A stretch of DNA of 64,000 bases from contig VMFR01000005.1 in the NCBI GenBank assembly GCA_007376135.1, forward strand, positions 4,141 to 68,140. The letters are read 5' to 3'. Both the position numbers and the translations under genes were made by a program. Positions 15,409 through 63,101 of the stretch are shown here, piece after piece. The notes beneath the pieces are model-generated. The model saw only the letters and a program-made list of their open reading frames with translations, was not told the origin of the DNA and did no database searches. This stretch comes from Parcubacteria group bacterium Gr01-1014_31 (GTDB taxonomy: Bacteria > Patescibacteriota > Patescibacteriia > Buchananbacterales > GWA2-38-13). Position 1 is the first letter of the stretch, and every line of letters starts with the position of its first letter.

Positions 15409-15459
15409 AACTGTACTTATTTCTCCGTCATTGATGTGAGAAATACTGAATATAATTTA

Positions 15460-15531
15460 CGCCCTCGGCAGGACTTGAACCTGCAAATCCTCGTTAGAAC
15501 CGAGGCAGTTTATCCGTTAGCTTACGAGGGC
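15460..15531 (-). tRNA. tRNA-Arg (anticodon TCT)
   Basis: Hand-folded from sequence. Acceptor GCCCTCG/CGAGGGC. Anticodon stem CCTCG/CGAGG with loop GTTCTAA. T-arm GCAGG-TTCAAGT-CCTGC. Discriminator G. No CCA encoded. Confidence 0.75.
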
Positions 15532-15588
15532 ATGATTCCGACCCAGCACTGCCCCCTTCTCTTCTGCGGTGTAAACATAATCCCTGGA

Positions 15589-15665
15589 AACTATTCCCCT
15601 ATTTACCCCGCTGATAAGCGGGGTTCGCGCTTGACCCGCCGTTGGTAGTGGCGAATTAGAGAATG
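15589..15665. repeat. Degenerate copy of the TIR element family
   Basis: ACTATTCCCCTATTTACCCCGCTGATAAGCGGGGTTCGCGCTTGACCCGCCGTTGGTAGTGGCGAATTAGAG aligns with the 14877-14952 copy. Confidence 0.45.
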
Positions 15666-15673
15666 GGTTGAGT

Positions 15674-16474: not shown

Positions 16475-16487
16475 AAAAACAGCAAAA

Positions 16488-19298: not shown

Positions 19299-19365
19299 GG
19301 TTCGGAGTCGAGTAAATCATTCAAGCTTTTTTAATGACTAACAATTCTCCAGCATTCCAGTGTGT

Positions 19366-19400
19366 CAATTTTCCCACCATTGGGCCAAAAAGTCAAAAAC
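19366..19400 (-). promoter_or_regulatory. Promoter-like motif copy A upstream of the MmeI-like gene
   Basis: On the minus strand: TTGACT-TTTTGGCCCAATGGTGG-GAAAAT. Near-identical copies lie at 22496-22530 and 25783-25815. Confidence 0.45.
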
Positions 19401-19429
19401 AAACGGGGCTATTAGCCTTTCTTCAAAGA

Positions 19430-19460
19430 ACAAAAAAACGCCAGCATGAGGGCTGGCGAT
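19430..19460 (-). terminator. Rho-independent terminator on the minus strand, following the PRTase-like gene
   Basis: Minus strand: gccagccctcatgctggc followed by ttttttt. Confidence 0.55.
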
Positions 19461-19718
19461 TCCTCTTAAGAGCTCATACTAGAAGATTTCAAATGCAACG
19501 CGTCAGCTATTTGAATTTACAATTCACATAGATACCTTTTAATAGAGCCCGCACTTTTATCTTAGCACTACTCAGCTTAGTAGGCCAGAATAGTATCAAG
19601 GTATTCGATAACGGCTGTAGCTTAGGCCAGTCCACTATTGTGGCGCTTTTTAGAAAACTTCCGCCGTTCTTTAGTGAACAGAAATTTTATGGTGCGCATT
19701 TCTTAATCGCACACTCCT

Positions 19719-20579
19719 TTACCCGCGGACTAGATCAGTAATGCGTGGAAAAATGCCAAATTTACTATCCTGTCCCACGTTGCCCCTGAAAATGCTAGGC
19801 ACGCCATTAGGTGTATTCCTATAAAAAACTACCATAGAGGCAAGGCCTCTATAACCCAATGGAGCCCCCCGATCTCCCTCCCTGCAATAACCAACCAGCC
19901 TCTCTCTTTCTACATCATCAAGAATTATACTATCAGGGTGCAATGGTCGATCATTCTTATCGTGGATATAATCACAGACGATTTCGACGCCTACTTTAGT
20001 AATTGCAGCGAAGGCTTCGCGACAAATGCAAGGCAAGAGAAAAAATTCAGAAAACTGACCTATCAAAGGAACTTCTTTTGCGACATAATTTCTTGAATTT
20101 AAAAATTGATCACCAGTCCCCGAAAAATCATCAACATATATAATAGCGCCACTTCCTAGGCTGATTGTCGTCTTGATGAGCTCAAGTAAGTTTTGACAAT
20201 CGATAATATGCACGCGCTTTCGTTCTAGATTAGCTTTATCGCGGAGTAAGTTAAGCATCAAGTGGCTACTACTTGCTGGCTTGTCCACGGTCACATATAT
20301 AACTTTTTCTAATGCTACCCCTCGACTTTGTAATTTAGCTAGTAACTTTCCATTGTGTTTGACGAGGACATCTTCCGTCTTTTGTTCCGAATAATACCGG
20401 ATATGACTCAACAAGGACAAAATTAGATGGTGATCAGTTTTAGGAAATTGATCGAGCCAACTAAGAACTAATTGCGGGTGGACTTTTTGAGGGTGGTAAT
20501 CCTTAACTCGCCTACAAAAGTGCAGAATCCTCAAGTAATCTAAGGGATGCAACATCGCCCATGATAAATTATTCATCAT
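19719..20579 (-). CDS. Phosphoribosyltransferase (PRTase)-like domain protein
   Basis: AIIYVDDFSGTGDQF resembles the PRPP-binding loop (hhhhDDhxxTG). AT-rich. Start uncertain; overlaps the upstream gene's end. Confidence 0.4.
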   Translation of the reverse strand: MMNNLSWAMLHPLDYLRILHFCRRVKDYHPQKVHPQLVLSWLDQFPKTDHHLILSLLSHIRYYSEQKTEDVLVKHNGKLLAKLQSRGVALEKVIYVTVDKPASSSHLMLNLLRDKANLERKRVHIIDCQNLLELIKTTISLGSGAIIYVDDFSGTGDQFLNSRNYVAKEVPLIGQFSEFFLLPCICREAFAAITKVGVEIVCDYIHDKNDRPLHPDSIILDDVERERLVGYCREGDRGAPLGYRGLASMVVFYRNTPNGVPSIFRGNVGQDSKFGIFPRITDLVRG

Positions 20580-21576
20580 CTGTCGGGGTGCCATCCTCCA
20601 TTTTCGCAAGCAGATTTGTAATATAGACCTGCACACCCCTCACGGCCCTCACAAAATCTTTATTAACCTCGCTTGTTAGCTGAGATTCCAATCCCCTTAA
20701 CTTTTCTACAAGATCATTACAAGCGGTAATTGCTGTTGTAATATTTCGAGGTGGCAAAAAAATATCAAAAGTATCACGAGTTTCTAGCTCTATGTGGTTC
20801 ACGTATTCTTTTAACTTTGATTTAAATTCTTTCTCCCGGTTCTGTTCTTGGGCTTTTGCCGATGCTTCAATTATCCTTCGGAAATGAATTACGCTTACGA
20901 TCTTCCCTGATTTGTATTTATCAACAAGCCTTTGAATCAAAACTTCTCTGCCAAGTTCCCTAAATAATCCTGGTAGTTTATCCTCATAAATCTTAATGAC
21001 CGGGTAGGCCTCAATCCAAAAATTCGAAGCCACTCGTCTATCGGGCTCTGACTCTAGAGACAAAGCCTGAAACTTTTCCGGAAAGCTAAGTAATATTTTG
21101 CAACGCTCCACCTGCATCTCACTTAAACCCGTAAGATCAGATATCTTTTTATTATCGTCTTCGTGCAGCTCTTCAATGATGGTTTTCAGACTAATCGCAG
21201 TTGGCATTAGCTCCCATTGTTGTCTAAAGTTATGAATCGAAAACATGTAAAGCAGGCCGGCAATTTTTGTCGGTGGCTCAACAATATTAGCGGGTATAGT
21301 AATCTCAAAACCATCATCAGCCAATTCCGCGCAACACCGAAACCGTCTCTCCCCATCTAAAATTGCATATTTTTCTTGTCCTTTAATTTTGTAAGCGGTG
21401 ATCGGTACAAGTACCCCATGTTGTTGGATACTTTCTTTTAATTCTCGTAAGGGCACGGGGTCGAATAACTTTCTGGGGTTATTTCGATTTGGTTTTATCT
21501 CGGTGACATGAAGATGCTTGAGTAGTCCGGTAGGAACAACTTCCGTAATAACTTTATGTTGTTTATTACTAGACAT
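20569..21576 (-). CDS. ParB/sulfiredoxin-like nuclease domain protein
   Basis: HVTEIKPNRNNPRKLFDPVPLRELKESIQQHGVLVPITAY...LDGERRFRCC is the ParB N-terminal domain with its GERR motif. Confidence 0.65.
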   Translation of the reverse strand: MSSNKQHKVITEVVPTGLLKHLHVTEIKPNRNNPRKLFDPVPLRELKESIQQHGVLVPITAYKIKGQEKYAILDGERRFRCCAELADDGFEITIPANIVEPPTKIAGLLYMFSIHNFRQQWELMPTAISLKTIIEELHEDDNKKISDLTGLSEMQVERCKILLSFPEKFQALSLESEPDRRVASNFWIEAYPVIKIYEDKLPGLFRELGREVLIQRLVDKYKSGKIVSVIHFRRIIEASAKAQEQNREKEFKSKLKEYVNHIELETRDTFDIFLPPRNITTAITACNDLVEKLRGLESQLTSEVNKDFVRAVRGVQVYITNLLAKMEDGTPTDDE

Positions 21577-21580
21577 TATT

Positions 21581-22387
21581 TTAAACCAATATGTTTGAAA
21601 TCAAAAATTCTCGAGCAGCTTTCCGATTAGAGGAGAACCCAGCTATGCTTCTCCTCACAGAAATTATTCTTTTATAAAATCCTTCCGAAAGCATTTTCGC
21701 CTCATTTGATTCTAAATAGCTAACCAAAAAAGGAATCCGCATGCGACTAAGCCTGCGCATCCATTTTCGTAATCTAATAAGCTTTTTGAAATCAAATTTA
21801 GAGCTATCATAGTCTGTAAAAATGTTTTTGTTATGGACACTGAAAGGCGGATCCATATAGACAAAATCTCCTTTCCGAACGTAACGAAGTGTTTCATCAA
21901 AATCAGCAGCTAAGAGATGTGCCCTCTTCAAAAGCTTAGAAGAACGAGAAAAGACAAGCTCGCTCGGGATGCTGCCAGTTTTGCCGTAAGGCACATTAAA
22001 TTGGCCTGATTGATTTGTTCTATATAAACCATTGAAACAAAAACGATTGAGATACACAAAACGAGCCGCCCTTACCAATGGGTTGTTGATTTTTTTTGAA
22101 TCAAGAGACCTTAGCGAGTAATATGTCTGCTTAGATTGATCTAGCTCTTCTAATATAGCCAAGACTCCTTTCCAATCTTTTTTTATCTGCCTATAGGTAG
22201 CTATCAACTCAAGATTAATATCAGCGAGTAGGGCCTCTTTTGGGGCTACATTAAAAAAGAGGCACGCAGATCCGGCGAACGGTTCCACATACCGCTTACT
22301 TTGACTTGCGCGCCAATAACTGGAAAGTAACGGTACTAACTGCCTCTTGCTGCCAGCCCAACGTAAAATTGTATAATTAGCTGCCAT
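21581..22387 (-). CDS. Dam-family DNA N6-adenine methyltransferase
   Basis: LRWAGSKRQLVPLL...YVEPFAGSACLFF (AdoMet-binding motif I) and DPPF (motif IV). Confidence 0.8.
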   Translation of the reverse strand: MAANYTILRWAGSKRQLVPLLSSYWRASQSKRYVEPFAGSACLFFNVAPKEALLADINLELIATYRQIKKDWKGVLAILEELDQSKQTYYSLRSLDSKKINNPLVRAARFVYLNRFCFNGLYRTNQSGQFNVPYGKTGSIPSELVFSRSSKLLKRAHLLAADFDETLRYVRKGDFVYMDPPFSVHNKNIFTDYDSSKFDFKKLIRLRKWMRRLSRMRIPFLVSYLESNEAKMLSEGFYKRIISVRRSIAGFSSNRKAAREFLISNILV

Positions 22388-23746: not shown

Positions 23747-25087
23747 CTACCGAATGCCGGTATCGCAGGAAAGCCGTACTTCATGCAGCGCCCCCGGTTC
23801 GATGGCGATGGTTTGCGTCTCACAGCGAGGAAAGGGGTTGCCACCGACGGGCTGCAAGCCGTACTCGCCCGGCGGGAGCATCACGCGGAAATTGCCCTCC
23901 TGGTCGGTTTCCGCGATGGCAAACGGGGCGCTGCTTGGACTGTCGGCGGCAATCACCTGCACCGCCGTCACGTAGGGCTTATCCGCGCACGCCGGGTCGG
24001 GAGGTTCCCGCTGCACCGGGCAGTTGGGGCCAAGTATGACTTTTCCCTGCACGCCGGAATCGTACGGCAAAATACCGCCGCTCCCCGGCGTTGGTGCCGC
24101 CATTGGCTCCCAGCCAAACGGGACGGCGCACGGCGTTGGGAAATCCTTTTCCTCGCCGGTCAGCGTGCTTTTCGCGCGCGTGATGACCTGAATGCAAACC
24201 ATCGAACTTCCCTCGCCCCGAGCTTGGCGGGCCAGGAGATTCAAACGGCCATCCTTCATCTCGTAGTACTCCACCGCAACGCCGGCAGGCGCTTCCGAGA
24301 GCTCATCGAGGTACAGCGGCGGATTTGCGACCAGCAGCCGACTGTCCAGCCGGTACTGCAACGAAAACGCGCTGCCTAAACTGTACTCTACAATTGCACC
24401 GGTCTTCGCGTCCACAATGGCATGCATCTGACACGACGCACCACAACCCCATTCAATGACGGTATAGTGGCCGGCAAAATTTGGCCCGTAGGTGAGTCCG
24501 TCAATAATCCTTGGCCCAACGATCTTTGCCGCCGCCGGGGATGTCTCGAAATCAACGTTGGCACGCGGTCCGGTATACGCATCTGGGGCTGGATAATCAC
24601 TGAAGCGGTACAGGTATGGCGTAGCTACATCCAACAACCATACCGCCGGGCCTTCGTAGGGCGAACCGTGCAGCACATGCACGCGCGGGGCCAGCAGCTC
24701 CCCGACCGGTTGCGAAATCGCGTACTCCCCATTGGCCGCCACGCTGAACACATACTCTTTCTTGTCCCCGAACCACAGCGAGAGCGGCTCACTGGTCTTG
24801 TTCTTGATGACGAGGCGCTGCTTGGCCGTCATTTTCTGGCAACGCGGGGAAGGAACGTCTTGGTTCACCTCCACGCGAACGACGTTTTCATCGCCCGGTT
24901 CAACACACGCTCCGACAGCGGGATACTCGCTGTCGGCCGGCAAGACTGCGGCCAGCGGTTTGCCACCACCCTGGTCGGGCTGATCGTTCCCGCTGGGGGT
25001 GCGGCTGGGACGGCGAATCGCAAAAATTGCAATTCCCGCAACGGCAACCAGCGCCACGGCAGCGACGACGAGAATAATTTTTTTCAT
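23747..25087 (-). CDS. Hypothetical membrane-anchored extracytoplasmic protein
   Basis: N-terminal TM ILVVAAVALVAVAGIAIFAI; no recognizable domains. Confidence 0.45.
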   Translation of the reverse strand: MKKIILVVAAVALVAVAGIAIFAIRRPSRTPSGNDQPDQGGGKPLAAVLPADSEYPAVGACVEPGDENVVRVEVNQDVPSPRCQKMTAKQRLVIKNKTSEPLSLWFGDKKEYVFSVAANGEYAISQPVGELLAPRVHVLHGSPYEGPAVWLLDVATPYLYRFSDYPAPDAYTGPRANVDFETSPAAAKIVGPRIIDGLTYGPNFAGHYTVIEWGCGASCQMHAIVDAKTGAIVEYSLGSAFSLQYRLDSRLLVANPPLYLDELSEAPAGVAVEYYEMKDGRLNLLARQARGEGSSMVCIQVITRAKSTLTGEEKDFPTPCAVPFGWEPMAAPTPGSGGILPYDSGVQGKVILGPNCPVQREPPDPACADKPYVTAVQVIAADSPSSAPFAIAETDQEGNFRVMLPPGEYGLQPVGGNPFPRCETQTIAIEPGALHEVRLSCDTGIR

Positions 25088-25108: not shown

Positions 25109-25438
25109 TTACAAATGCGCCCGCGCGGCGTAATTGAAGGGGTAAAAATAATTACGCCACAGCTGGTCGGTAGATTTCCATTGATTGTCACCGACAAAAT
25201 AATCGCTCAACACTTCGCGGACCCGCGCGATCTCCTTGCAGCGCCGCCTGTTTTTTCCGTCCGCCAGGGTCAGGTCGATGAGTTCCAGCGCGCGCTCGAA
25301 CGCCAGGCGGCTGTACTCCGGATTTTTGCTCCGCCACGAGATGGTCCGCTCCACTTCGCTGCCGATATTGGCCAGCTGCTCGATCAGCGAAAGCTCGCGC
25401 CATTTCCCGTTCGCTAATTCCCGATGTTGGTAGGTCAT
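25109..25438 (-). CDS. Hypothetical protein, 109 aa
   Basis: ORF translationally coupled (ATGA) to the upstream DUF5674 gene. Confidence 0.4.
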   Translation of the reverse strand: MTYQHRELANGKWRELSLIEQLANIGSEVERTISWRSKNPEYSRLAFERALELIDLTLADGKNRRRCKEIARVREVLSDYFVGDNQWKSTDQLWRNYFYPFNYAARAHL

Positions 25439-25776
25439 TTCGTTACCAGCTGAGTTACTATCGCAACGATCTTTTTCTGCAGCGCCGGGTCTTGCACGCT
25501 GCGGCTGCGGTTGTCTTGCGACGGCCGCAGGTTGATCATCGAGTCGAATTCGATAAAATTTTCCTCTTGTTCATCCGGATACAGGTTGATACCCCACAGG
25601 TCGGCTTGCAGAGAACCCTGCTCAAGCAGGTACGCCTCTTCGTCGGCGTGCAGCTCGGCGTCAATCGCCATGATCTTTTTCTCCACGTCAACTACCGCTT
25701 TGACCATATTGCCAAAACCATGCGCAGCGATCTGCCGCAACTCCGCAAGAGTTACCGGGGACTGGATGATACGCAT
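25435..25776 (-). CDS. Conserved small protein resembling DUF5674
   Basis: GFGNMVKAVVDVEKKIMAIDAELHADEEAYLLEQGSLQADLWGINLYPD...FDSMINLRPSQDNRSR. The promoter-like motif ends 7-11 bp from the ATG, so the transcript is probably leaderless. Confidence 0.45.
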   Translation of the reverse strand: MRIIQSPVTLAELRQIAAHGFGNMVKAVVDVEKKIMAIDAELHADEEAYLLEQGSLQADLWGINLYPDEQEENFIEFDSMINLRPSQDNRSRSVQDPALQKKIVAIVTQLVTK

Positions 25777-25782
25777 AAAAAA

Positions 25783-25815
25783 ATTTTCCCACCGTTAGGC
25801 CAAAAAGTCAAAATC
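25783..25815 (-). promoter_or_regulatory. Promoter-like motif copy C immediately upstream of the DUF5674 ATG
   Basis: Minus strand: TTGACT-TTTTGGCCTAACGGTGG-GAAAAT, with the -10 ending about 7 nt before the ATG. Confidence 0.45.
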
Positions 25816-25965
25816 ATGAAGTAGGGAACCCGTAACAAGTGGGAGAGGAATTTTTTCTAGATTCCCTCTGCGTCTCGGGAATGACGATTTGTTTTCCCCC
25901 TCACCCAACCCTCTCCCACATCGGGGAGAGGAAAATTATTTTGGGTATAATACAGGTGCTCCTGG

Positions 25966-27429
25966 TTAGTCACCCAAATCAATCACCTCATCAATACGGA
26001 TCTGCGCGACAAAGTCGGGCAAATGCGAGACTAGCACCATTCCGCCGGCGTACTGATCCAGTGCCTGCGCAATGATGGGCAGGTGGCGGAAGTTGATGTG
26101 GTTGGTGGGCTCATCCAGCAGCAGGACGGCGGGCGCCAGGAGTACCAGTCGGCAGAACGACAGCAACCCTTTCTGGCCTTCGGATAACGCGCGGATGGGG
26201 CTGGAAAGCAGCTTCCCGTCAAGCAGGAAACCCGCCGCGGCAGAGCGCAAGAGGTGCTCGTCGGGGCGCTCCATCGCGGCTTTGAGCACCGCGAACGCCG
26301 TCAGGTCGGGGTCCAGGTTGCTGAAATCCTGCTTGTAGTATCCCACGCGCACTTCGGGAGAGATGACTGCATCATCAAAACCGCCGGCATTCAACCGTTC
26401 CAGCAGCGTACTCTTACCCACCCCGTTGGGCCCCGCCAGCAGGACGTGGGTGTCTTTTCGCACCGTCAGATCCAGCGGCCGGCGCACGGGGGCGTGGTTT
26501 TTCAGCGCGGTCACGGCGCGAAACGCGATGAGCTGGCCGTCGAAGTGCCGATCCAGCGCCTGGACCGGAATGGTGAACGGGCGGATGACCTTGTCTTCGC
26601 GGCGCACGTCCACCATCTGTTCTTCGGCAGTCTCGGCAACTTGGCGCATGCGTTTGGCGACGCTCCGCAATTTTCCCCCCTTGTGAGCAAACACTTCCGC
26701 TTGGGCGCGCTTTTCCCGCACCTGCGCTGCCAGGCGCGCGTTCTGCAGATTTTCCCGCTCGATGCGATTTTTGATCTCCTCCACCACCACGCTGTAGTTG
26801 CCGGTGTACTGCTCGATGGTGTGGTTGAACGCGTCCAGATACAGCACGCCGTCGGAAAACGCGTTGAGAAAATCCGCATCGTGGGAGATGACCACGCAGG
26901 TTTTCTCATACGCCATCAAAAAACCGGTCAGGTGCTCGATGCCGATGGCGTCCAGATTATTGGTGGGCTCGTCCAGCAGCAGGACATCCGGGTGCTGGAT
27001 GAGCGCGTGGGCCAGCAACAGCCTAGCTCTCTGGCCGCCGGAACATTTGTTCAGGTGGCGCTCGAAGGGAACGGACAGGTGCACTACTTCGCACACCTCG
27101 GCGATGAGTTTATCGAGATTGTACTTCTGCTCGGTGAACGCGCTGGCAAAGTATTCGCGCACCGTGTGGCCCAGCATCGCTTTGGGCATCACCTGCCGCG
27201 CAATGCCGATGGTGGCATCGGCGGGCGTGAGAAATACGGAACCCTCGGTCGGGGCAAGTTCTCGGGTGATGAGCTTGAAGATGGTGCTCTTGCCGGCGCC
27301 GTTCTGGCCCATCAAGGTGATGCGGCTGCCCGTGCGGACGGAAAAACTGGCTTCCTCAAGCAGCTTATGATCGTGCTCGTATTCGAAGCTCACGTTCGAG
27401 AACCGAAGGATGACGTTATCGTTGGCCAT
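25966..27429 (-). CDS. ABC-F family ATPase with two ABC domains
   Basis: Two Walker A sites (GQNGAGKST, GPNGVGKST) and two signature/Walker B regions (LSGGQRARLLLAHAL...LLLDEPTNNLD, LSEGQKGLLSF...LLLDEPTNH). Confidence 0.8.
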   Translation of the reverse strand: MANDNVILRFSNVSFEYEHDHKLLEEASFSVRTGSRITLMGQNGAGKSTIFKLITRELAPTEGSVFLTPADATIGIARQVMPKAMLGHTVREYFASAFTEQKYNLDKLIAEVCEVVHLSVPFERHLNKCSGGQRARLLLAHALIQHPDVLLLDEPTNNLDAIGIEHLTGFLMAYEKTCVVISHDADFLNAFSDGVLYLDAFNHTIEQYTGNYSVVVEEIKNRIERENLQNARLAAQVREKRAQAEVFAHKGGKLRSVAKRMRQVAETAEEQMVDVRREDKVIRPFTIPVQALDRHFDGQLIAFRAVTALKNHAPVRRPLDLTVRKDTHVLLAGPNGVGKSTLLERLNAGGFDDAVISPEVRVGYYKQDFSNLDPDLTAFAVLKAAMERPDEHLLRSAAAGFLLDGKLLSSPIRALSEGQKGLLSFCRLVLLAPAVLLLDEPTNHINFRHLPIIAQALDQYAGGMVLVSHLPDFVAQIRIDEVIDLGD

Positions 27430-27573
27430 GGGGGAAATAATATTTCTCTACTTCGAGCGAGCCGCGCGAGTCGAGAAGTAAGCTCATAGGTAGCTTCTCG
27501 ACAAGCTCGAAGGCTATTTTTTACTTTTCAACTATTCCTCAACCGTTTCAAAATACTGGCTCATCCCAAATGC

Positions 27574-28839
27574 CTAGCAACTGTTCCCTGCCACAAAACC
27601 GGTCGTCCAACACAACTGCAGACTGTAGCCCCCCGAAGGACGGTCAATGTTCAAAACGTCGCCGACCAAATAGAGATTCGGCACCAGCCGCGACTGCATG
27701 GTTTTAAAATCCACCTCGGGCAGCGCGACACCGCCCGACGACACCACGGCCTTATCCGCACCCAGCAGGCCCTGCACGTGCAGGGGTATGGCCTTGAGCA
27801 GCGCGACCAGAGCGCGTCGGTCAGCACTGCGTACGCTGTGGTTGGCAGTCTCGCCATCAATACCGGCAAGCTCCAAAATTGCGGCCACCAGCGCCGCCGG
27901 AATGAGCCTACCCAAAGTATTTTTCAATTTTTTATTGCTCTCGGCCACCAGGTGGGTTTGCAGCTCTTGGCGCAGCTGGGCGTGGTCCCGGGACGGGAAC
28001 AGGTCCAGTACGATTTGCACGTCGCCGTAGCGCAGCAGCTCGCCCACGTGTTTGCTCATGTTCAACACCACGGGCCCACTGATGCCAAAATGCGTGAACA
28101 GGAGCTTGCCCTTGTGTACCTCCTGCTTCTGCTGATTTTGGAACGTGGTGAGTTTGCACGCTGGCAGAGCCACGCCGCCCAATTTTTTCGCCCATGCGTC
28201 GTGGAGCGCAATAGGCACCAGGGCAACGTCATTTTCTATGATGGTATGGCCGAGCTGCTTCAGCCAGGCGTAGCCCTCGCCCGTGGAGCCGGTTTCCGGC
28301 CGCGAAGTGCCGCCCGTCGCCACGATGCACGCTGCGGCCTCCAGCTCGGGCGCATTTTTGCGCCGGATGCGGATGTGGCCCGTGCTTTGGTCCACCGCCA
28401 AACCGCGAACGGCGGCGGAAGTTTGTACCTGCACGCCGCCTTGCCGCACGTAGCCGGCCAGCACGTCGAGCACCGACTGCGCGGAATTGGAAACCGGAAA
28501 TACCCTCCCCTCCGCCTCAACTTTCGTCGCCATCCCGCGAGCGTGGAAAAAACTTAAGCTTTCCTCCATGCCAAACTGCGAAAACGCGGAGAACAGGAAT
28601 TTGTCATTGCCTTTGTATTTGGCGAGCAGCGTGCGGGTCTGGGGCGCGGCGTTGGTCACATTGCACCGTCCGCCGCCGGTGATGAGCAGTTTCTTCCCCA
28701 AGATGGCATTTTTCTCCAACAGCAACACCGAACGGCCGCGCTCGGCCGCCCGGCCGGCCGCCATCATCCCAGCCGGACCGCCGCCGATGACCACCACTTC
28801 CCAGCGGGTTGGAGCAATGGGTTTCCCCTGCGACATCAT
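27574..28839 (-). CDS. HI0933-like FAD-dependent flavoprotein (BaiN / aminoacetone oxidase family)
   Basis: VVVIGGGPAGMMAAGRAAERG Rossmann fold, GGGRCNVTN, and C-terminal GYSLQLCWTTGFVAG. Confidence 0.7.
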   Translation of the reverse strand: MMSQGKPIAPTRWEVVVIGGGPAGMMAAGRAAERGRSVLLLEKNAILGKKLLITGGGRCNVTNAAPQTRTLLAKYKGNDKFLFSAFSQFGMEESLSFFHARGMATKVEAEGRVFPVSNSAQSVLDVLAGYVRQGGVQVQTSAAVRGLAVDQSTGHIRIRRKNAPELEAAACIVATGGTSRPETGSTGEGYAWLKQLGHTIIENDVALVPIALHDAWAKKLGGVALPACKLTTFQNQQKQEVHKGKLLFTHFGISGPVVLNMSKHVGELLRYGDVQIVLDLFPSRDHAQLRQELQTHLVAESNKKLKNTLGRLIPAALVAAILELAGIDGETANHSVRSADRRALVALLKAIPLHVQGLLGADKAVVSSGGVALPEVDFKTMQSRLVPNLYLVGDVLNIDRPSGGYSLQLCWTTGFVAGNSC

Positions 28840-28854
28840 GGTTATAACGTTCCT

Positions 28855-28892
28855 GACGAGAAGAACCGCCCTCCATGGAGGGCGGTTCTTGC
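28855..28892. terminator. Hairpin terminator downstream of csp
   Basis: agaaccgccctccatggagggcggttctt. Confidence 0.55.
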
Positions 28893-28902
28893 ACTGCTGC
28901 GC

Positions 28903-29100
28903 TTACGCGCGAGCGACGTTGGTGGCGGCCGGACCCTTGGGCCCGTCCACGACCTCAAAGGTTACCGTGTCGCCGACCTTCAGTTCGCTGTAGGTCACTC
29001 CCTTGAGTTCCTTGGAGTGAAAAAACAGGTCTTTGGCCTCGCCTTCGCGGGCGATGAACCCAAAGCCTTTTTCCGTCAGCGTCTTGATAGTACCAGTCAT
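28903..29100 (-). CDS. Cold-shock protein (CspA family)
   Basis: GTIKTLTEKGFGFIAREGEAKDLFFHSKEL...GDTVTFEVVDGPKGPAATNV; RNP motifs. Confidence 0.85.
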   Translation of the reverse strand: MTGTIKTLTEKGFGFIAREGEAKDLFFHSKELKGVTYSELKVGDTVTFEVVDGPKGPAATNVARA

Positions 29101-29483
29101 GTAATTGTGCGTACGTTAACTTATTTTCAGAAACTCGACAACGATTTCTGTAGCTTAGCAGCGTGCCGCCACTCTAGCACAAACGTAGGATTATTTCAAA
29201 TTCCCTGAGCGTCAGGTGCGCCCATTGGTTTCTGACACCTTTTGGTACCTTTCTTAGACCACCGCCGTCGGCGGGGCAAGAAGGTACCGCTAAAGTCGCG
29301 CCCCGTGTCGGAAAGTAGAAAAAATCGGGTTGCTTGACTTCCGCATGGGCGGCAGTGACGGTCCGGCCGCTGCTGCCAAATACATATTGACGAACATAGA
29401 TGTTTGACCTAAATATTACAGTACTTCCACGCCCCTTTCGGGGAGGTCGACGGCGGGACTAAAGGTAACTTATATTTTTTCTT

Positions 29484-30116
29484 ATGATAGCAACTCTTCC
29501 CATGCCGATGCGACGCGCAGCAGCCTTGCTGGCGGCAGCCGGGCTGCTCCTGGCGGGGCTCATGTTCGCGCTGCAACAGCGGCCGGCGCAGGCGGCTCCG
29601 TCCTCCGCGGCGGGCGGCATGTGTCCCCGCGACACGGCCGGCACGATCTATCTCGAGATCAAAGGTATTGAGGGCGAATCCAAGGACCAGCAGCATCCGG
29701 GCTGGCTAGAACTTGAATCCTACAGCTGGGGCATGACCCAGACGGGCGCGATCGGCGGCGGTGGGGGCGGCGGCGCCGGCAAGGTCAGCATGCAGGATTT
29801 CCACTTCACGATGAAGATGGATAAAGCCTCGCCCAAACTGATGCAGGCCTGTGCACTTGGCGAGCACCTCCGCGAGGTCAAGCTGGACGTGCGGCGCCCC
29901 AACGCCCCGGAATCCTTCCTGCAGTGGACGATGGAAGACGTTTTCTGCTCGTCATACCAGACGAGCAACATCGCAAACGGCGACGCCCTTCCGACCGAGC
30001 AGGTCAGCCTGAACTTCGGCAAGATCAAGGTTTCCTACACCGAGCAGGACAAGATGTGCAAACCGGGCGAAAAAACCGAATTCCAGTGGGACGCGGAGAC
30101 CAATACCGGCGTCTAG
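29484..30116 (+). CDS. hcp: Hcp1-family protein (type VI secretion tube protein) with an N-terminal Sec-type signal peptide
   Basis: IYLEIKGIEGESKDQQHPGWLELESYSWGMTQTGAIGGGGGGGAGKVSMQDFHFTMKMDKASPKLMQACALGEH aligns closely with P. aeruginosa Hcp1 (IKIGDVKGESKDKTHAEEIDVLAWSWGMSQSG...GGGGGAGKVNVQDLSFTKYIDKSTPNLMMACSSGKH). The N-terminal 45 aa, MPMRRAAALLAAAGLLLAGLMFALQQRPAQA|AP, is a canonical signal peptide. An alternative internal start at 29619 would give a standard Hcp. Confidence 0.7.
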   Translation: MIATLPMPMRRAAALLAAAGLLLAGLMFALQQRPAQAAPSSAAGGMCPRDTAGTIYLEIKGIEGESKDQQHPGWLELESYSWGMTQTGAIGGGGGGGAGKVSMQDFHFTMKMDKASPKLMQACALGEHLREVKLDVRRPNAPESFLQWTMEDVFCSSYQTSNIANGDALPTEQVSLNFGKIKVSYTEQDKMCKPGEKTEFQWDAETNTGV

Positions 30117-30135: not shown

Positions 30136-30170
30136 CAAAAACCCCCGGGCGCTCCGGGGGTTTTGTTTTC
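30136..30170 (+). terminator. Rho-independent terminator after hcp
   Basis: aaaaacccccgggcgctccgggggttttgtttt. Confidence 0.7.
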
Positions 30171-30236
30171 TACGTTATCGCCGATCAAGGCATTTTGTGG
30201 TAGAATACAGTACATCGAAATAATAACCCAACCTAT

Positions 30237-32718: not shown

Positions 32719-33924
32719 TTACTGGTTTGCCTTGGCCTTCTCTTTCTGGCAAGCGTCGATGAGCGAGGACTTCACGCGGTCTTTCTCCTTGGCCTCCCAC
32801 TGGACCAGATCATTCTGGAATTGGGAAGCCTGCTGCTTGAGCACGTCGGCCTGCAGGCGGCGCGCGCGGTTCTTCAGATAGCTTTCCTGCAGCACGTCGT
32901 CGATGCCGCGGTTCTTCAGGTGTTGCTGGCGGAGGATCTCCACCTCTTCGTCGGTCAGGTCGGCCGAGCCGAAGGTGGATTTCACCGATTCCGAGACCAC
33001 GGTGGTGGCGATGGTCAGGGGATCGCCGACGCTCTCCAGCGCGTCCAGCGCCGCGGACAGCCCGACGGACTTGACCTTACCCGTCACCGAATCCGTGTTG
33101 ATGGCCAGCTTGGAATCGCCGGGCGTCACCTGTCGCACCAGCTTGATCTTGGCCGCGAGCACTTCCGCGACGCTCTCGAAATCCAGCACCTTCTCAAAGC
33201 TGCCCTTCATGCCGCGGTTGGCATCGATGGTGTCGTAGGTCACCCAGGCCAGCCGCCAGAAAGATTTCAACAGGTTCGTCTTGATGTTTTGGACCAGCGC
33301 CTGCTTGTACTCGCGCAGCTCCACGCGCACCAGCCGGTCGACTTCCATATCGCGTTCCAGGAGGAAGATCTCGAGCTTCGCATCAACGATCTTACCCATG
33401 GTCGCCGCGTGTTCCTTGCCTTCAAAGCTGCGGTCCGACGGCGCGATGCGGTCGTCCAGGTCCGAGTACTTCTTCCAGTCGCTATCGAAAACCGACGCGT
33501 TGATCTGGCAGGTCTTTGGGTTGATGGGGCCGCTCAGGTCGGCGGCCTCCTCGGCATCCACGCATTTGCCGTTCACGGCCTTGGTGCCTTCCTTGCAGTA
33601 ACGGCACTCGTCGGAGGCAAAGATGCCCCCGGCAGCCTCGCAATTGCCCTTGAAAGCCGCGCGTAACTCATCCACCCAGGCTTTGTAGCCGGCTTGGACC
33701 TTGCTGTTGGCCGCGCTCTTGCTCTGGCCGATGTCCTTGCAGTACTCGTTGTGGAACGCGCACTTACAGTAGCGGAAATCCATCTTCGCCCCGCAGTAGT
33801 CGTCGCGGATGTCGGGGGCGCGGAATTTGTCCACCTTGGCGTACGACGCGGCGAACGCGACGGCGGCAAAACCAAGCCCCGCCGCGACCGCGGCTCTCGT
33901 CCCCCAGGCGCGCATAGATTTCAT
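32719..33924 (-). CDS. Hypothetical secreted protein with a Cys-rich N-terminal region
   Basis: Signal peptide, then a region with 10 cysteines, then a long helical region. Confidence 0.45.
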   Translation of the reverse strand: MKSMRAWGTRAAVAAGLGFAAVAFAASYAKVDKFRAPDIRDDYCGAKMDFRYCKCAFHNEYCKDIGQSKSAANSKVQAGYKAWVDELRAAFKGNCEAAGGIFASDECRYCKEGTKAVNGKCVDAEEAADLSGPINPKTCQINASVFDSDWKKYSDLDDRIAPSDRSFEGKEHAATMGKIVDAKLEIFLLERDMEVDRLVRVELREYKQALVQNIKTNLLKSFWRLAWVTYDTIDANRGMKGSFEKVLDFESVAEVLAAKIKLVRQVTPGDSKLAINTDSVTGKVKSVGLSAALDALESVGDPLTIATTVVSESVKSTFGSADLTDEEVEILRQQHLKNRGIDDVLQESYLKNRARRLQADVLKQQASQFQNDLVQWEAKEKDRVKSSLIDACQKEKAKANQ

Positions 33925-40052: not shown

Positions 40053-41348
40053 CTAGGCGTCCCAGTTCACCTTGAGGAAGTGCGAACCGCAGCTCATGCA
40101 CGGATCATAGGCGCGGATGAGCTTCTCGATCTCGAACGCGATCTTCTCTTTCGGAGCGTCCGGCAGCAAGTCTTGAACCAGACGGCGCACGTCGTCCTCG
40201 ATATTGAACTGGTTCTGACCGGTAGGAACGACGATCTCCCCGCGCTGAACGATCCCGTCCGCGCCGAGCTCCACCTTGTGGTAGAGCGTGCCGCGCGGCG
40301 CTTCCACCACACCCACGCCAACAGCCGCCCTCGGTTTGGCGGTCACCACCGGTTCCGGCGTGAACGTCGTTTGCGCCAGAGTGTCGATGCTGGCATCCAC
40401 GCAGTGCAGGATCTCGATGGCCTGCGCCAGGTTGTTGTGAAAAATATCGGTCGAGGGAAAGACTGCCAGCGCCGCTACCACGTCGGCTTTGGTCCTTGCG
40501 TGCAGCCGGTCTTTGGCCAGGTTCATCCGCGCCAGCGCCCCGACCATGTAGGACTCCCCGCGGTGCCGGTACGCGGACGCCTGCGAATACGGCAAAACTA
40601 CTTTTTCCAGATGGTCACGGAACTGGTCCTCCTGCAAGCACAACCCTTTGCCCGTCTGGATGCAGCCGTTGACAAAACCATAGCGTTCCGGCAGAAGGGC
40701 CATGTAGTTGGTCTGGCGGTCGAAATGGAACGGGGCACGCAAGAACACGTCGATGAGGCGCAGTACGGCGGGCCGCGCGGCTTGAAGCTTTTTCACCGCC
40801 TCAGCGATACCCGCCGGGTCCGGAAATTTCAGAAAGCCGCCGATGGTCGGATACAGCGCATGCACGGAGCGCCCCGACACCAATGTCGCGAGGTAGTTGC
40901 CGGCGGATTTTATCTCGAACCCGTCGTGGAGCAGCTGGTGCTGCTCGGGGTCATTCTCGTCGAAATCCAAAAAAGCGTCCTTGCCGTAGATATCGGGCAG
41001 GGCAAACAGGTAGAGGTGCAGGGCATGGTCGCGGATGTTCAGCCCGGCCATGGTCAGCTCCTTGAGCGCGATGCTTTGCGGCGTGGGCGTTATACCCAGT
41101 GCCCGTTCGCAGGCTTCAATGCTGCACAGCAGGTGCGCATTGGAACAGGTGCCGCAAATGCGCGCCAGCAGCTGCGGCAGCGCGGCGATGGGTTTCCCCT
41201 GCATCGCCTGGGTAAAGAAGCGCTTGAACTCGGTGATCTTGAACTGGACCTGAACGACCTTGCCGCCGCGAACCTTGACGTCCAGCGCGGCCGAACCTTC
41301 CACCTTGGTCAGGCGGTCCATCGTGAGGTCTAGGTCGATGGTGTGCAT
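40053..41348 (-). CDS. [NiFe]-hydrogenase large subunit, about 432 aa, likely group 3 (cytosolic)
   Basis: N-terminal RICGTCSNAH and C-terminal DPCMSCGSH metal-binding motifs; an 8-aa tail after His consistent with protease processing. The ORF track's 150-aa N-terminal extension was rejected; start set at MHTIDLDLTMDRL. Confidence 0.75.
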   Translation of the reverse strand: MHTIDLDLTMDRLTKVEGSAALDVKVRGGKVVQVQFKITEFKRFFTQAMQGKPIAALPQLLARICGTCSNAHLLCSIEACERALGITPTPQSIALKELTMAGLNIRDHALHLYLFALPDIYGKDAFLDFDENDPEQHQLLHDGFEIKSAGNYLATLVSGRSVHALYPTIGGFLKFPDPAGIAEAVKKLQAARPAVLRLIDVFLRAPFHFDRQTNYMALLPERYGFVNGCIQTGKGLCLQEDQFRDHLEKVVLPYSQASAYRHRGESYMVGALARMNLAKDRLHARTKADVVAALAVFPSTDIFHNNLAQAIEILHCVDASIDTLAQTTFTPEPVVTAKPRAAVGVGVVEAPRGTLYHKVELGADGIVQRGEIVVPTGQNQFNIEDDVRRLVQDLLPDAPKEKIAFEIEKLIRAYDPCMSCGSHFLKVNWDA

Positions 41349-41365
41349 AACAAGAAAGGCAAAAA

Positions 41366-42055
41366 TCAAAATGCAAAAGGCAAAAGCTTGGCGGTCAATT
41401 CGGCGGCCAGCAGCCCCCCCATGACGATACTTAGACACCCGGCGCTCAGTTGTACCGCGCGGTGTGCCCGGTCGAACCGCTGCGTGAGCAGGAATGGCAC
41501 GGTCAACGCCGACGATACGGCCATCATCCCAAGGATGGACCCCGCCCCGAACACGCCGGCAAACAGCATACCTTGGCCGAACGTCGGGGCACTCGCCATG
41601 ACCAGCAGTGCGAGCGCAGCGCTCCCCGCCAGCCCGTGGAGCATCCCGACAAGGAACGAACGGTGCTGGTGGGCATGCGCGGGACTGCCGGCGTGGGCGT
41701 GCCAGTGCACATGCCGTACGCCATGGTCGTGGACATGCGCGTGCACGTGCAGCCGCTCCCGCCGCATCGTGCGCAGGACGTTGACCCCGAGCCACACCAG
41801 CATCGCCGCGACGGCATACTCAAAGAGCAGCGCCAAGACGACCGGCATCGTGACGCGGAACGCGAGCAGCAGAATACCGACGGTCATCAGCGCGAGGGTG
41901 TGCCCGAGCCCCCAACGCAAACCTAACTGCCACGACCGCCGCACGCTTTTCGTTTCCGCGGCCATCGCAGTGACCGCGAGGACATGATCGGCGTCTAAGG
42001 CATGCTTGACGCCCAGCACCAGTCCCAGCAAGTAAATTGACCACCAGGTACTCAT
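41366..42055 (-). CDS. NicO/RcnA-type Ni2+/Co2+ transporter
   Basis: KHALDADH is the HX4DH motif. His-rich loop HVHAHVHDHGVRHVHWHAHAGSPAHAHQH. Six TM helices. Confidence 0.65.
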   Translation of the reverse strand: MSTWWSIYLLGLVLGVKHALDADHVLAVTAMAAETKSVRRSWQLGLRWGLGHTLALMTVGILLLAFRVTMPVVLALLFEYAVAAMLVWLGVNVLRTMRRERLHVHAHVHDHGVRHVHWHAHAGSPAHAHQHRSFLVGMLHGLAGSAALALLVMASAPTFGQGMLFAGVFGAGSILGMMAVSSALTVPFLLTQRFDRAHRAVQLSAGCLSIVMGGLLAAELTAKLLPFAF

Positions 42056-42741
42056 AACGCGCCCCCTCGCAGTTCCTTGACCAGCGCATTTACTTTCGCC
42101 AAAAACGTATTCGGGTCCATCGGGCAGCCCGGGATTTCCGCGTCAACCTTGACGACGTCCGATACTTTTTGCACCTTCGGGAGGGCGGAAAACCGCGCCA
42201 CTAGTGGGGCGATCTCGGCCTGCTGCTCGGGCGTGAATGTATTGCGCTGCCCCGCCGGCAGTCCGATGCAAGCGCACGCCCCGACGGCCACCAACTTTTT
42301 GGACCGTCCGCGAATGTCCCGTACAGTTGCCGCCTGGTGCTCGGAGGCAATCGCCCCCTCGATGAAAGCAATATCGAACGCATCCATGACGTTCCGCGAC
42401 TTCAGCACCCGGGCATGGCGGAAATCGAACAGCCGTTTCCACTCCTGCCAGTGGTCATTCATCACCTCGGTCATCACCACCGTATTGTCCTCGCAGCAGG
42501 AGAAGGAAAACCATCCAATTTTCAGCTTCGGCGGGAGCGGCGGGACGGCGGGAATGATGGCGGGCGCCTGCGCGCTGCGCACCGCCAGGGCCCGGACGGG
42601 TGGCTTTTTCGCCGTCCGCCGAAGGGTCTTTGGCAAAGATAAACGAGGTTTTGTTAGACGCTTCTTGACAACCCGTTTTACTGCGCGAGAGCGCAGCCTG
42701 ACAGGCCTACGTTTGCCAATTTTCAATTTTCGATTTCCCAT
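42052..42741 (-). CDS. [NiFe]-hydrogenase small subunit (NuoB/HoxY-like) with an unusual basic N-terminal extension; start uncertain
   Basis: KLKIGWFSFSCCEDN...GACACIGLP...IPGCPMDP cluster-binding motifs. In-frame N-terminus of about 70 aa rich in K/R with no alternative ATG. The annotated ATG lies inside the IR of the adjacent inserted element. Confidence 0.6.
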   Translation of the reverse strand: MGNRKLKIGKRRPVRLRSRAVKRVVKKRLTKPRLSLPKTLRRTAKKPPVRALAVRSAQAPAIIPAVPPLPPKLKIGWFSFSCCEDNTVVMTEVMNDHWQEWKRLFDFRHARVLKSRNVMDAFDIAFIEGAIASEHQAATVRDIRGRSKKLVAVGACACIGLPAGQRNTFTPEQQAEIAPLVARFSALPKVQKVSDVVKVDAEIPGCPMDPNTFLAKVNALVKELRGGAL

Positions 42742-63097: not shown

Positions 63098-63101
63098 GAC
63101 G

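What the first reader, a model, noticed from the sequence alone, without database searches (positions are those of the whole stretch)
29484..30116. Bona fide Hcp1-family T6SS tube protein carrying a canonical Sec signal peptide, with no T6SS genes nearby
The core aligns almost residue-for-residue with P. aeruginosa Hcp1, including the native Gly-run (GGGGGGGAGKVSMQDFHFTMKMDKASPKLMQAC) and the GESKD...SWGMTQTG N-terminal strand. The ORF begins 45 codons upstream with MPMRRAAALLAAAGLLLAGLMFALQQRPAQA|AP, a textbook n/h/c signal peptide with an AXA cleavage site and coding-like GC3. Hcp is normally cytoplasmic and exported by the T6SS itself. No TssB/C, VgrG or ClpV genes occur in the 64 kb; the neighbours are all secreted proteins. 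This suggests an orphan Hcp re-routed through Sec, for example as an extracellular ring scaffold or adhesin.
Basis: partly seen in the sequence, partly recalled or inferred. Interest (0 to 1): 0.6.

Follow-up and report, generated by a model that had tools for sequence, protein, structure and literature searches.

The report
Signal-peptide Hcp in a T6SS-less bacterium
A tiny groundwater bacterium (Parcubacteria, CPR) that shows no sign of a type VI secretion system carries a real Hcp "tube protein" gene with an ordinary export signal on its front, and it belongs to a large, apparently undescribed class of exported Hcp proteins.

Summary
Window 29484-30116 (+) encodes a 210-aa protein. Residues 54-207 are an Hcp1-type domain: Pfam T6SS_HCP 137 bits, and the AlphaFold model matches P. 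aeruginosa Hcp1 at TM 0.88. Residues 1-37 have every rule-based feature of a Sec signal peptide, with cleavage predicted at AQA|AP.

The extension is translated. Its start codon and sequence are conserved in five relatives, it is under purifying selection (dN/dS 0.10-0.40), and the internal Met46 is not conserved.

The window comes from Parcubacteria group bacterium Gr01-1014_31, where the gene is already deposited as "hemolysin-coregulated protein". None of the ~50 window ORFs scanned is a T6SS component.

As a control, 24 of 26 signal-less relatives sit beside T6SS genes (TssA/B/C/E/F/G, ClpV, the accessory ImpE). None of 8 signal-bearing loci does.

The clade also has its own cysteines (C47, C155, C192), consistent with extracytoplasmic disulfides.

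The phenomenon is wide. At least 45 clusters of single-domain Hcps carry signal-like N-termini, and giant proteins carry six tandem Hcp domains.

Two reader claims fail. The neighbours are not all secreted, and identity to Hcp1 is 38%. Function is inferred only: most likely a self-assembling extracellular ring.

The parts
29387..29415 (+). Promoter-like element: TTGACG (-35), 17-nt spacer, TAAATA (-10)
   Evidence: The TTGACG hexamer and its spacing are conserved in 5 of 6 related loci (alignment A2), read directly from the sequence. The consensus scanner instead picked TCGACG-18-TATATT at 29447-29476. Which one is used is not resolved.
29444..29456 (+). 13-mer AGGTCGACGGCGG, conserved upstream (9 invariant positions plus small shifts), likely a DNA-level regulatory site
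   Evidence: It is conserved in all six loci although synonymous sites in the CDS are near saturation. No Rfam hit, no covarying pairs, and RNA folds are no better than shuffles.
29484..30116 (+). Complete CDS of the pre-protein (210 aa plus stop)
   Evidence: From Met7 (29502) it is identical to GenBank TSC76037.1, 'hemolysin-coregulated protein', Parcubacteria group bacterium Gr01-1014_31.
29484..29594 (+). Signal peptide, codons 1-37: n = MIATLPMPMRR, h = 19 aa, c = QQRPAQA; predicted SPase I cut after Ala37
   Evidence: Rule-based anatomy finds a single AXA site, at the same relative place in all six clade members, and QRPAQAAP is invariant. dN/dS is 0.06-0.44. AlphaFold helix at residues 8-30.
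29595..29642 (+). Linker of the mature N-terminus, codons 38-53 (APSSAAGGMCPRDTAG), containing clade-invariant Cys47 (29622-29624)
   Evidence: G44, G45, C47, R49 and T51 are invariant in the clade and absent from canonical Hcps. The model is low-confidence and unstructured here.
29643..30113 (+). Hcp1-type beta-barrel domain, codons 54-210, with Cys123 (29850-29852), Cys155 (29946-29948) and Cys192 (30057-30059)
   Evidence: Pfam, PDB and fold matches. Cys155 and Cys192 occur only in signal-bearing Hcps: 10/53 and 6/53, against 0/144 signal-less sequences for both. Canonical relatives have C123 plus C136 instead.
30138..30174 (+). Intrinsic terminator (12-bp GC-rich stem, 3-nt loop, T-run), making the gene monocistronic
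   Evidence: The next gene starts at 30237.

Best explanation
This is a T6SS-independent, exported Hcp.

Origin and setting. A high-GC Parcubacteria (CPR) lineage holds an Hcp1-family gene whose closest signal-less relatives are T6SS-cluster Hcps, the few named ones from Acidobacteria and Planctomycetes-type bacteria. In this lineage the gene is a stand-alone, monocistronic unit whose product starts with a 37-residue Sec-type signal peptide.

Proposed mechanism, step by step:
1. The pre-protein is made from the ATG at 29484. Shown by comparative evidence.
2. It is targeted to SecYEG by the positively charged n-region and the 19-residue hydrophobic core, and crosses the single cytoplasmic membrane unfolded. 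Inferred from the signal's anatomy.
3. Signal peptidase I cuts at AQA|AP. This releases a 173-aa, 18.8-kDa, acidic (pI 5.0) mature protein. Inferred.
4. Outside the cytoplasm the protein folds into the Hcp barrel. Two clade-specific disulfides stabilise it: C123-C155 inside the barrel, and C47-C192 tying the new N-terminal linker to the beta8-beta9 loop. The pairing is inferred from the co-occurrence of the cysteines, not from geometry.
5. Like P. aeruginosa Hcp1, which forms 9-nm hexameric rings on its own, it most likely assembles into rings on or near the cell surface. There it would serve as a structural or binding module rather than as a projectile. This step is inferred and is the least certain.

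Wider class. The protein belongs to a much wider class of Hcp proteins with non-T6SS export signals.
For: Hcp identity.

The extension is real coding sequence. It is conserved in five relatives of 204-212 aa with invariant QRPAQAAP. dN/dS is 0.10-0.40. The start codon is conserved, Met46 is not, and there is an in-frame stop upstream. GC3 is 0.79.

Signal anatomy with a unique conserved AXA site.

Host is a CPR bacterium: LigA 100% identical to Parcubacteria Gr01-1014_31, and the next-best named hits are Patescibacteria, Doudnabacteria and Buchananbacteria. The gene itself is deposited from that MAG. CPR genomes have Sec but no detectable T6SS (PMC9166423).

No T6SS family among ~50 window ORFs. 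None in the flanks of the relatives.

Control: 24/26 signal-less relatives have TssA/B/C/E/F/G, ClpV or ImpE next door, against 0/8 signal-bearing loci, p = 2.5e-6.

Cysteine pattern: C47/C155/C192 are invariant in the clade. C155 is found only in signal-bearing Hcps. A second signal-bearing subclade has exactly C123 + C155. Canonical relatives have C123 + C136.

Vertical inheritance in one lineage: partial synteny with L001; L007 MsrA and MsrB are 69% and 76% identical to the window's; GC is 0.58-0.61.

Wide class: 45 of 78 single-domain representatives among the best 150 hits have signal-like N-termini.

Hcp1 rings self-assemble without other T6SS parts (PMC11011275).
Against: No signal-peptide predictor (SignalP or similar) was available, so the signal call is rule-based.

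The 19-residue h-region is hydrophobic enough (Hessa sum -1.9) to stay in the membrane if it is not cleaved.

Five of six members have RR in the n-region and all have Arg in the c-region, which are Tat-like traits.

Only 64 kb of the genome was seen, so a T6SS elsewhere is excluded only by what is known about the phylum.

No coordinates of the model could be read, so disulfide geometry is untested.

The NCBIfam TssD model scores 57.4, just under its 58.9 cut-off.

The two Hcp1 positions that can be cross-linked between stacked rings (G90, R157) are changed in this clade, to N/E140 and E205. Tube stacking may therefore be altered or lost.

There are no expression, localisation or assembly data of any kind.
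Confidence: 0.6

Rival explanations
1. Signal-anchor. The hydrophobic segment is not cleaved and acts as an N-terminal transmembrane helix. The Hcp domain would then be displayed on the outer face of the cytoplasmic membrane, tethered by the 23-residue stretch (31-53) that follows the hydrophobic core.
For: The h-region is 19 residues with a summed Hessa free energy of -1.9 kcal/mol. AlphaFold predicts a 23-residue helix (8-30) followed by a disordered tether. Another window protein (23747-25087) has a similar uncleavable anchor.
Against: A unique AXA site with Pro at -4 lies 7 residues after the h-region. It is invariant (QRPAQA|AP) in six members whose h-regions have diverged. That degree of conservation is not expected for a mere tether. 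Long h-regions are also normal for the cleaved signal peptides of single-membrane bacteria (general knowledge).
Confidence: 0.2
2. Tat export. The protein folds, and perhaps oligomerises, in the cytoplasm and is then exported by the twin-arginine pathway.
For: RR is present in the n-region of 5 of 6 members. The signal is long (37 aa). A conserved Arg in the c-region could act as Sec avoidance. TatA and TatC occur in some Paceibacteria (PMC9166423). One unrelated signal-bearing Hcp (P0317) does look Tat-like, with SRRTVLK.
Against: RR is followed by AAA, TAA or TVT, so the Tat pattern RR.[FGAVML][LITMVF] fails in all six, and P0003 has RH. The h-region is strongly hydrophobic (mean Kyte-Doolittle 2.4-2.7). 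No Tat-signal model hit appeared even at E <= 1. New cysteines fit oxidative folding after export better than folding before it.
Confidence: 0.08
3. Ordinary cytoplasmic T6SS tube protein with a mis-called start. Translation begins at the internal Met46, and a T6SS is encoded elsewhere in the genome.
For: The Hcp domain is intact and close to canonical T6SS Hcps at 50-60% identity. Only 64 kb of the genome was inspected.
Against: Met46 is not conserved. The extension is under purifying selection and its start codon is conserved. No T6SS gene lies in the window or in any flank of eight signal-bearing loci, whereas 24 of 26 canonical relatives are inside T6SS clusters. The host is a CPR bacterium, a group in which T6SS has not been detected. 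The clade has replaced the canonical C136 and gained three cysteines.
Confidence: 0.03
4. Same export route, different purpose: an extracellular decoy. The exported ring would bind and neutralise Hcp-dependent effectors or other small proteins fired at the cell by T6SS-armed neighbours or hosts.
For: The evidence is indirect. The lumen-forming Hcp barrel is well conserved. The gene stands alone with no partner genes. The closest canonical relatives come from T6SS-bearing Acidobacteria and Planctomycetes that share such habitats. That Hcp rings bind effectors in their lumen is established knowledge for P. aeruginosa Hcp1 and was not tested here.
Against: Nothing in the sequence data points specifically to effector binding. 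No immunity-like or effector-like gene is linked.
Confidence: 0.07

Closest known systems
P. aeruginosa Hcp1 (PA0085, PDB 1Y12), the canonical T6SS tube protein TssD
   Same: Same Pfam family and same fold (TM 0.88). The alignment is colinear over 153 residues and includes the Gly-rich extended loop and the helix carrying the conserved Cys.
   Different: Only 38% identical. The window protein has a 53-residue N-terminal extension with a signal peptide and three extra conserved cysteines. It is not linked to any T6SS gene and sits in a CPR bacterium. It also scores just below the NCBIfam TssD cut-off.
Signal-less 160-163-aa Hcps from T6SS clusters of Acidobacteria, Planctomycetes and unnamed metagenomic bacteria (P0007-P0120, L020-L092)
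   Same: They are the closest sequence relatives of the domain, at 50-60% identity.
   Different: They begin directly with MA(A)VDYFLKI and carry C123 + C136. In 24 of 26 loci they lie beside TssA/B/C/E/F/G, ClpV or ImpE.
Other signal-bearing orphan Hcps found here (P0351, P0383, P0102, P0111, P0023 and about 40 further 50%-identity clusters)
   Same: A single Hcp domain preceded by a hydrophobic N-terminal signal, with no T6SS neighbours where flanks exist. One subclade shares C155.
   Different: In most of them the signal is fused almost directly to the first strand (...AFA|ASDYFLK). Some are paired with a second, longer signal-bearing Hcp-like gene (L011, L014). The window clade alone has the C47/C192 pair and the QRPAQAAP...GGxCxR[DE]T linker.
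Hcp proteins with C-terminal toxin extensions (Hcp-fused polymorphic toxins)
   Same: They are another case of the Hcp domain serving as a module with an added part (PMC3482391).
   Different: In those proteins the addition is a C-terminal toxin and delivery still depends on a T6SS. Here the addition is an N-terminal export signal and there is no T6SS.
Engineered Hcp1 G90C/R157C disulfide-linked nanotubes
   Same: They show that Hcp rings self-assemble without other T6SS parts, and that added cysteines can lock higher-order assemblies together (PMC11011275).
   Different: They are artificial. The natural cysteines here are at other positions, and the two engineered positions are changed to N/E140 and E205 in this clade.

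Membership tests
Hcp family (Pfam PF05638 T6SS_HCP; Hcp1 fold) | Sequence match above the family's curated threshold | tested here: met
   137.1 bits against a gathering score of 23.5, covering the full-length model 1-129.
Hcp family (Pfam PF05638 T6SS_HCP; Hcp1 fold) | Hcp beta-barrel fold with one helix and an extended Gly-rich loop | tested here: met
   AlphaFold2 gives pLDDT >90 over the barrel. The top Foldseek hits are all Hcp structures, led by 1y12 at TM 0.88 and E=6e-16.
Hcp family (Pfam PF05638 T6SS_HCP; Hcp1 fold) | Assembly into hexameric rings | not testable with these tools
   No multimer prediction and no model coordinates were available. This is inferred only from the conservation of the domain.
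TssD, the functional T6SS tube protein (NCBIfam TIGR03344) | Score above the curated subfamily cut-off | tested here: not met
   57.4 bits against a cut-off of 58.9, a marginal miss.
TssD, the functional T6SS tube protein (NCBIfam TIGR03344) | Encoded with T6SS core genes (TssB/C sheath, baseplate, ClpV, VgrG) | tested here: not met
   No T6SS family among ~50 window ORFs. 0 of 8 signal-bearing loci have such neighbours, against 24 of 26 canonical loci. The rest of the genome could not be searched.
TssD, the functional T6SS tube protein (NCBIfam TIGR03344) | No N-terminal signal peptide; polymerises in the cytoplasm inside the sheath | tested here: not met
   A conserved, selected 37-residue signal peptide is present.
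Sec-type (SPase I) signal peptide | Positively charged n-region, hydrophobic h-region, c-region with small residues at -3 and -1, a helix breaker, and no Pro at +1 | tested here: met
   n-region net +2. The h-region is 19 aa with mean Kyte-Doolittle 2.36. Pro at -4, A-Q-A at -3 to -1, Ala at +1. The site is unique and conserved in all six members.
Sec-type (SPase I) signal peptide | Actual export and cleavage; score from a trained predictor | not testable with these tools
   No SignalP-type tool was available and there are no experimental data.
Tat signal peptide | Twin-arginine consensus (S/T-R-R-x-F-L-K; RR.[FGAVML][LITMVF]) with a weakly hydrophobic h-region | tested here: not met
   The pattern fails in all six members and P0003 has RH. 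The h-region is strongly hydrophobic. No Tat-signal HMM hit at E <= 1.
Bacterial lipoprotein signal (SPase II) | Lipobox [LVI][ASTVI][GAS]C at the end of the h-region | tested here: not met
   Cys47 lies 17 residues after the h-region and is preceded by G-G-M/T/L.

The most novel reading that the evidence does not exclude
Hcp rings may have a second life outside the T6SS. On this reading, a widespread family of exported Hcp proteins self-assembles into disulfide-stapled rings or tubes on the cell surface. Three export forms were seen: Sec-signal forms such as this one, single chains with six tandem Hcp domains and a planctomycete extracellular motif, and six-domain chains with RTX repeats. In CPR epibionts such a structure could serve as an attachment device, or as a roughly 4-nm conduit to the host cell.
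Probability: 0.12. Interest if true: 0.85.

Novelty: new variant of a known kind. Interest (0 to 1): 0.62.

Why it matters
Hcp is the textbook example of a protein secreted without a signal peptide, and its presence in supernatants is the standard readout of T6SS activity. A conserved, selected Hcp with a classical export signal breaks that link between the Hcp fold and the T6SS. This is all the more so because the host belongs to a phylum where no T6SS has been detected and is thought to have a single membrane.

It also warns annotators. "Type VI secretion system tube protein Hcp" in a genome is not evidence of a T6SS. Here 45 of 78 single-domain representatives among the best hits carry signal-like N-termini.

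For CPR biology, it adds a small, abundant-looking, self-assembling surface-protein candidate to a group whose means of interacting with hosts is largely unknown.

For protein engineering, natural cysteine-bearing exported Hcps and natural single-chain six-domain Hcps are ready-made variants of a scaffold already used to build nanotubes.

Tried and rejected
- Internal start at Met46: rejected, because Met46 is not conserved and the extension is under selection.
- Tat signal and lipobox: both patterns fail.
- A structured RNA leader or riboswitch upstream: nothing in Rfam, no covariation, and folds no better than shuffles. The conserved 13-mer is more likely a DNA site.
- Exact-sequence look-ups of the window protein and of a neighbour found no contig on record. 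The deposited form was found only through the cluster look-up.
- The genome-collection scan returned only the sister MAG.
- The single-protein scan of JGI metagenomes found nothing. The clade-profile scan returned mostly canonical Hcps, which I then used as the control set.
- Taxonomy of the other signal-bearing Hcps: the cluster look-up gave no organism names, and the profile search was swamped by canonical Hcps.
- Conserved partner genes: none. The flanks differ in every lineage.
- Disulfide geometry could not be measured because model coordinates are not returned.
- Literature searches for signal-peptide Hcps, Hcp in CPR and T6SS-independent Hcp export found nothing relevant.

Full report
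**What is there.**
Window 29484..30116 (+) is a 210-codon ORF. Residues 56-185 match Pfam T6SS_HCP end to end (E=5e-40, 137 bits against a cut-off of 23.5). The best solved relative is P. aeruginosa Hcp1/PA0085 (1y12, E=4e-31, residues 54-207). An AlphaFold2 model built on 120 homologues has mean pLDDT 83. It shows a helix at 8-30, a disordered stretch at 31-54, and a confident beta-barrel with pLDDT >90. Its top Foldseek matches in the PDB are all Hcp structures, led by 1y12 at TM 0.88 and E=6e-16. Identity to P. aeruginosa Hcp1 is 38% (58/153), colinear with three small indels, so "almost residue-for-residue" overstates it. The NCBIfam TssD model scores 57.4, just under its 58.9 cut-off.

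**The N-terminal extension is a real, selected part of the protein.**
- Five relatives (P0001-P0005, 62-93% identical, 204-212 aa) all carry it. After them the hit list drops to ordinary 160-163-aa Hcps at about 50% identity.
- In all six loci the ORF opens with ATG followed by [IFV]-A-T. Conservation jumps at that ATG, and an in-frame TAA lies 18 nt upstream in the window.
- Nei-Gojobori dN/dS for codons 1-53 is 0.10-0.40 across six pairwise comparisons. The Hcp domain gives 0.12-0.30, with dS near or above 1 for the distant pairs.
- GC3 is 0.79 in the extension and 0.81 in the domain, against 0.49 overall GC in the upstream intergenic region.

**Anatomy of the extension.**
- The n-region is MIATLPMPMRR (net +2).
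- The h-region is AAALLAAAGLLLAGLMFAL (19 aa, mean Kyte-Doolittle 2.36).
- The c-region is QQRPAQA, followed by AP. Pro is at -4, Ala at -3 and -1, and there is no Pro at +1.

This is the only AXA-type site after the hydrophobic core. The octamer QRPAQAAP is invariant in six proteins whose hydrophobic cores have diverged. The Tat pattern fails in all six, and P0003 has RH. No Tat-signal model scores even at E <= 1. There is no lipobox. No trained signal-peptide predictor was available, so this call rests on rules. An uncleaved signal-anchor remains a serious alternative, because the core is hydrophobic enough to stay in the membrane (Hessa sum -1.9). Cleavage after Ala37 would leave a 173-aa, 18.8-kDa protein of pI 5.0, against a median pI of 6.4 for canonical relatives.

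**Whose gene it is.**
The window's NAD-dependent DNA ligase is 100% identical to that of "Parcubacteria group bacterium Gr01-1014_31" on a 166.8-kb contig. The next named hits are Patescibacteria, Doudnabacteria, Buchananbacteria and other CPR groups at 50-70%. From Met7 the Hcp is identical to GenBank TSC76037.1, "hemolysin-coregulated protein", from that MAG. The gene is therefore deposited and named, but I found nothing written about it.

P0001 comes from a sister MAG (GCA_030648715.1) that shares downstream synteny: NTP-transferase, EamA, DUF6390, YibE/F and a NiFe hydrogenase. The contig holding P0004 also carries MsrA and MsrB that are 69% and 76% identical to the window's. All clade loci have 58-61% GC. 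This fits vertical inheritance within one high-GC Parcubacteria lineage. A survey of freshwater CPR genomes found Sec, and Tat in some classes, but no type III, IV, VI or VII systems (PMC9166423).

**No T6SS around it, with a control.**
Pfam scans of about 50 window ORFs found no T6SS family, and there is no second Hcp in the window. The gene is monocistronic. It has a promoter-like TTGACG-17-TAAATA, a conserved 13-mer upstream, and a strong terminator at 30138-30174. Flanking genes differ in every relative.

To find out what absence of neighbours means, I fetched 80 metagenomic loci with a clade profile. I sorted them by whether the Hcp ORF has a signal-like extension and clustered all flanking ORFs. 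Pfam identified the recurrent neighbour families as follows:

| Neighbour family | Canonical loci with it (of 26) |
|---|---|
| TssC/VipB | 21 |
| TssA | 19 |
| TssB/VipA | 18 |
| ImpE | 15 |
| TssF | 12 |
| TssE | 8 |
| TssG | 8 |
| ClpV | 8 |

Of the 26 signal-less loci with at least 2.5 kb of flank, 24 have at least one of these. Of the 8 signal-bearing loci (the window, L001, L005, L007, L008, L011, L014, L051), none does. Fisher p = 2.5e-6, or 8e-6 if the window and its sister MAG are counted once. The three upstream genes are a cold-shock protein, an HI0933-like flavoprotein and an ABC-F ATPase.

**Cysteines.**
The six clade members share exactly four cysteines: C47 in the new linker, C123 on the helix, C155 in strand 6, and C192 in the beta8-beta9 loop. 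Canonical relatives have C123 and usually C136 (88 of 114), which the clade has replaced by Val. Across 197 aligned domains, Cys155 occurs in 10 of 53 signal-bearing proteins and in 0 of 144 signal-less ones. These are two clades, so the count is not independent. The second clade (P0318, P0331, P0351, P0361) has exactly C123 + C155.

I infer one disulfide C123-C155 and, in the window clade only, a second C47-C192. This is what one expects of a protein that folds outside the cytoplasm. The geometry could not be checked.

**It is one branch of a large class.**
An exhaustive HMMER search of 1.84 billion representatives gave 10,422 Hcp-like hits. Among the best 150, 78 are single-domain proteins under 300 aa. 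Of these, 45 have at least 15 residues with a strongly hydrophobic segment before the domain. Many have textbook sites, for example ...MFAFA|ASDYFLKINGVEGES and ...QNAFA|ASVDYFLKIDG. The query's own signal biases this sample upward, so 45/78 is not a frequency, but it is at least 45 clusters at 50% identity. In a rough NJ tree the window clade sits inside a signal-rich group (17 of 18 tips), and signal status changes at least 21 times over the tree. The GC content of these loci ranges from 35% to 71%, so the hosts are diverse. Their taxonomy could not be obtained.

**How it most likely works.**
- Shown: an intact Hcp1-type domain, a translated and selected N-terminal hydrophobic signal with a conserved AXA site, clade-specific cysteines, a CPR host, and no linkage to T6SS genes.
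- Inferred: Sec targeting, SPase I cleavage at Ala37|Ala38, oxidative folding with two disulfides, and self-assembly into hexameric rings. P. aeruginosa Hcp1 forms 9-nm rings on its own, and forms disulfide-locked tubes when cysteines are placed at G90 and R157 (PMC11011275).
- Caveat: those two positions correspond to N/E140 and E205 here. Both are clade-specific departures from the G and K of canonical relatives, so ring stacking may be altered.
- Function: the role (structural ring, binding module, decoy for incoming effectors, conduit) is open. I rank a self-assembling extracellular or surface ring first because nothing else is linked to the gene.

**Verdict.**
It is a new variant of a known kind: a known fold and family with an export route and genomic setting that are not described in the literature I could search. 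All evidence is computational.

Noticed in passing
Not in the window: proteins P0243-P0301 etc. (e.g. P0243 1125 aa, P0244 1048 aa, P0247 1066 aa, P0261 1351 aa): About 60 of the best 150 representatives are giant proteins with exactly six tandem Hcp domains. Pfam confirms 6 T6SS_HCP stretches in each of the four tested. Many start with the planctomycete extracellular motif RRRLxxExLExRxLL (PF07595, sub-threshold in P0244). P0261 adds RTX calcium-binding repeats, which mark type I secretion substrates. These look like single-chain pseudo-hexameric Hcp rings exported by non-T6SS routes. I found no description of them.
   Followed up: partly
L011:2252-4022 and L014:10001-11339: In two unrelated metagenomic loci, a signal-bearing Hcp is followed directly by a second, longer signal-bearing Hcp-domain gene (400 aa with a C-terminal repeat region; 263 aa with a degenerate Hcp domain). 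No T6SS genes are nearby. This may be a two-gene exported Hcp module, absent from the window.
   Followed up: partly
window 29387-29456: A conserved -35-like TTGACG and a 13-mer AGGTCGACGGCGG lie upstream of the Hcp gene in six loci, despite saturated synonymous sites. There is no RNA-structure support. In two relatives a response-regulator gene is divergently transcribed.
   Followed up: partly
window 15459-22387: A low-GC island (39-48% against about 61%) lies next to tRNA-Arg (15459-15532). It holds an MmeI-family restriction-modification enzyme (16488-19298), a PRTase-CE protein (19719-20636), a ParB_N-domain protein (20569-21576) and a D12 adenine methyltransferase (21581-22387). It is probably a horizontally acquired defence island.
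   Followed up: no
window 25109-29483 compared with L001:308-1763: The Hcp gene sits at a synteny break. In the sister MAG, DUF5674 and a 109-aa gene lie just upstream of Hcp with DUF1761 between them. In the window, an ABC-F ATPase, an HI0933-like flavoprotein and a cold-shock gene lie between. Downstream, the sister MAG has a PETase/dienelactone-hydrolase gene where the window has a 601-aa phosphodiesterase-PKD protein.
   Followed up: partly
window 648-3536, 23747-25087, 32719-33924, 45432-47090, 60600-63851: Several large ORFs (301-552 aa) have signal- or anchor-like N-termini and no Pfam match at all. They are typical CPR 'dark' surface proteins.
   Followed up: no
window 40053-44452 and 53240-54742: NiFe-hydrogenase large and small subunit genes have a NicO/DsbD_2-like membrane protein between them and a pyridine-nucleotide-disulfide oxidoreductase nearby. 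There is also an archaeal-type PEP carboxylase (PEPcase_2). These are metabolic extras for a Parcubacteria genome.
   Followed up: no
P0317: One signal-bearing Hcp representative has a convincing Tat-type signal (SRRTVLKSTAAGVGVLAGAAAITTATADA). Exported Hcps may therefore use more than one pathway.
   Followed up: no
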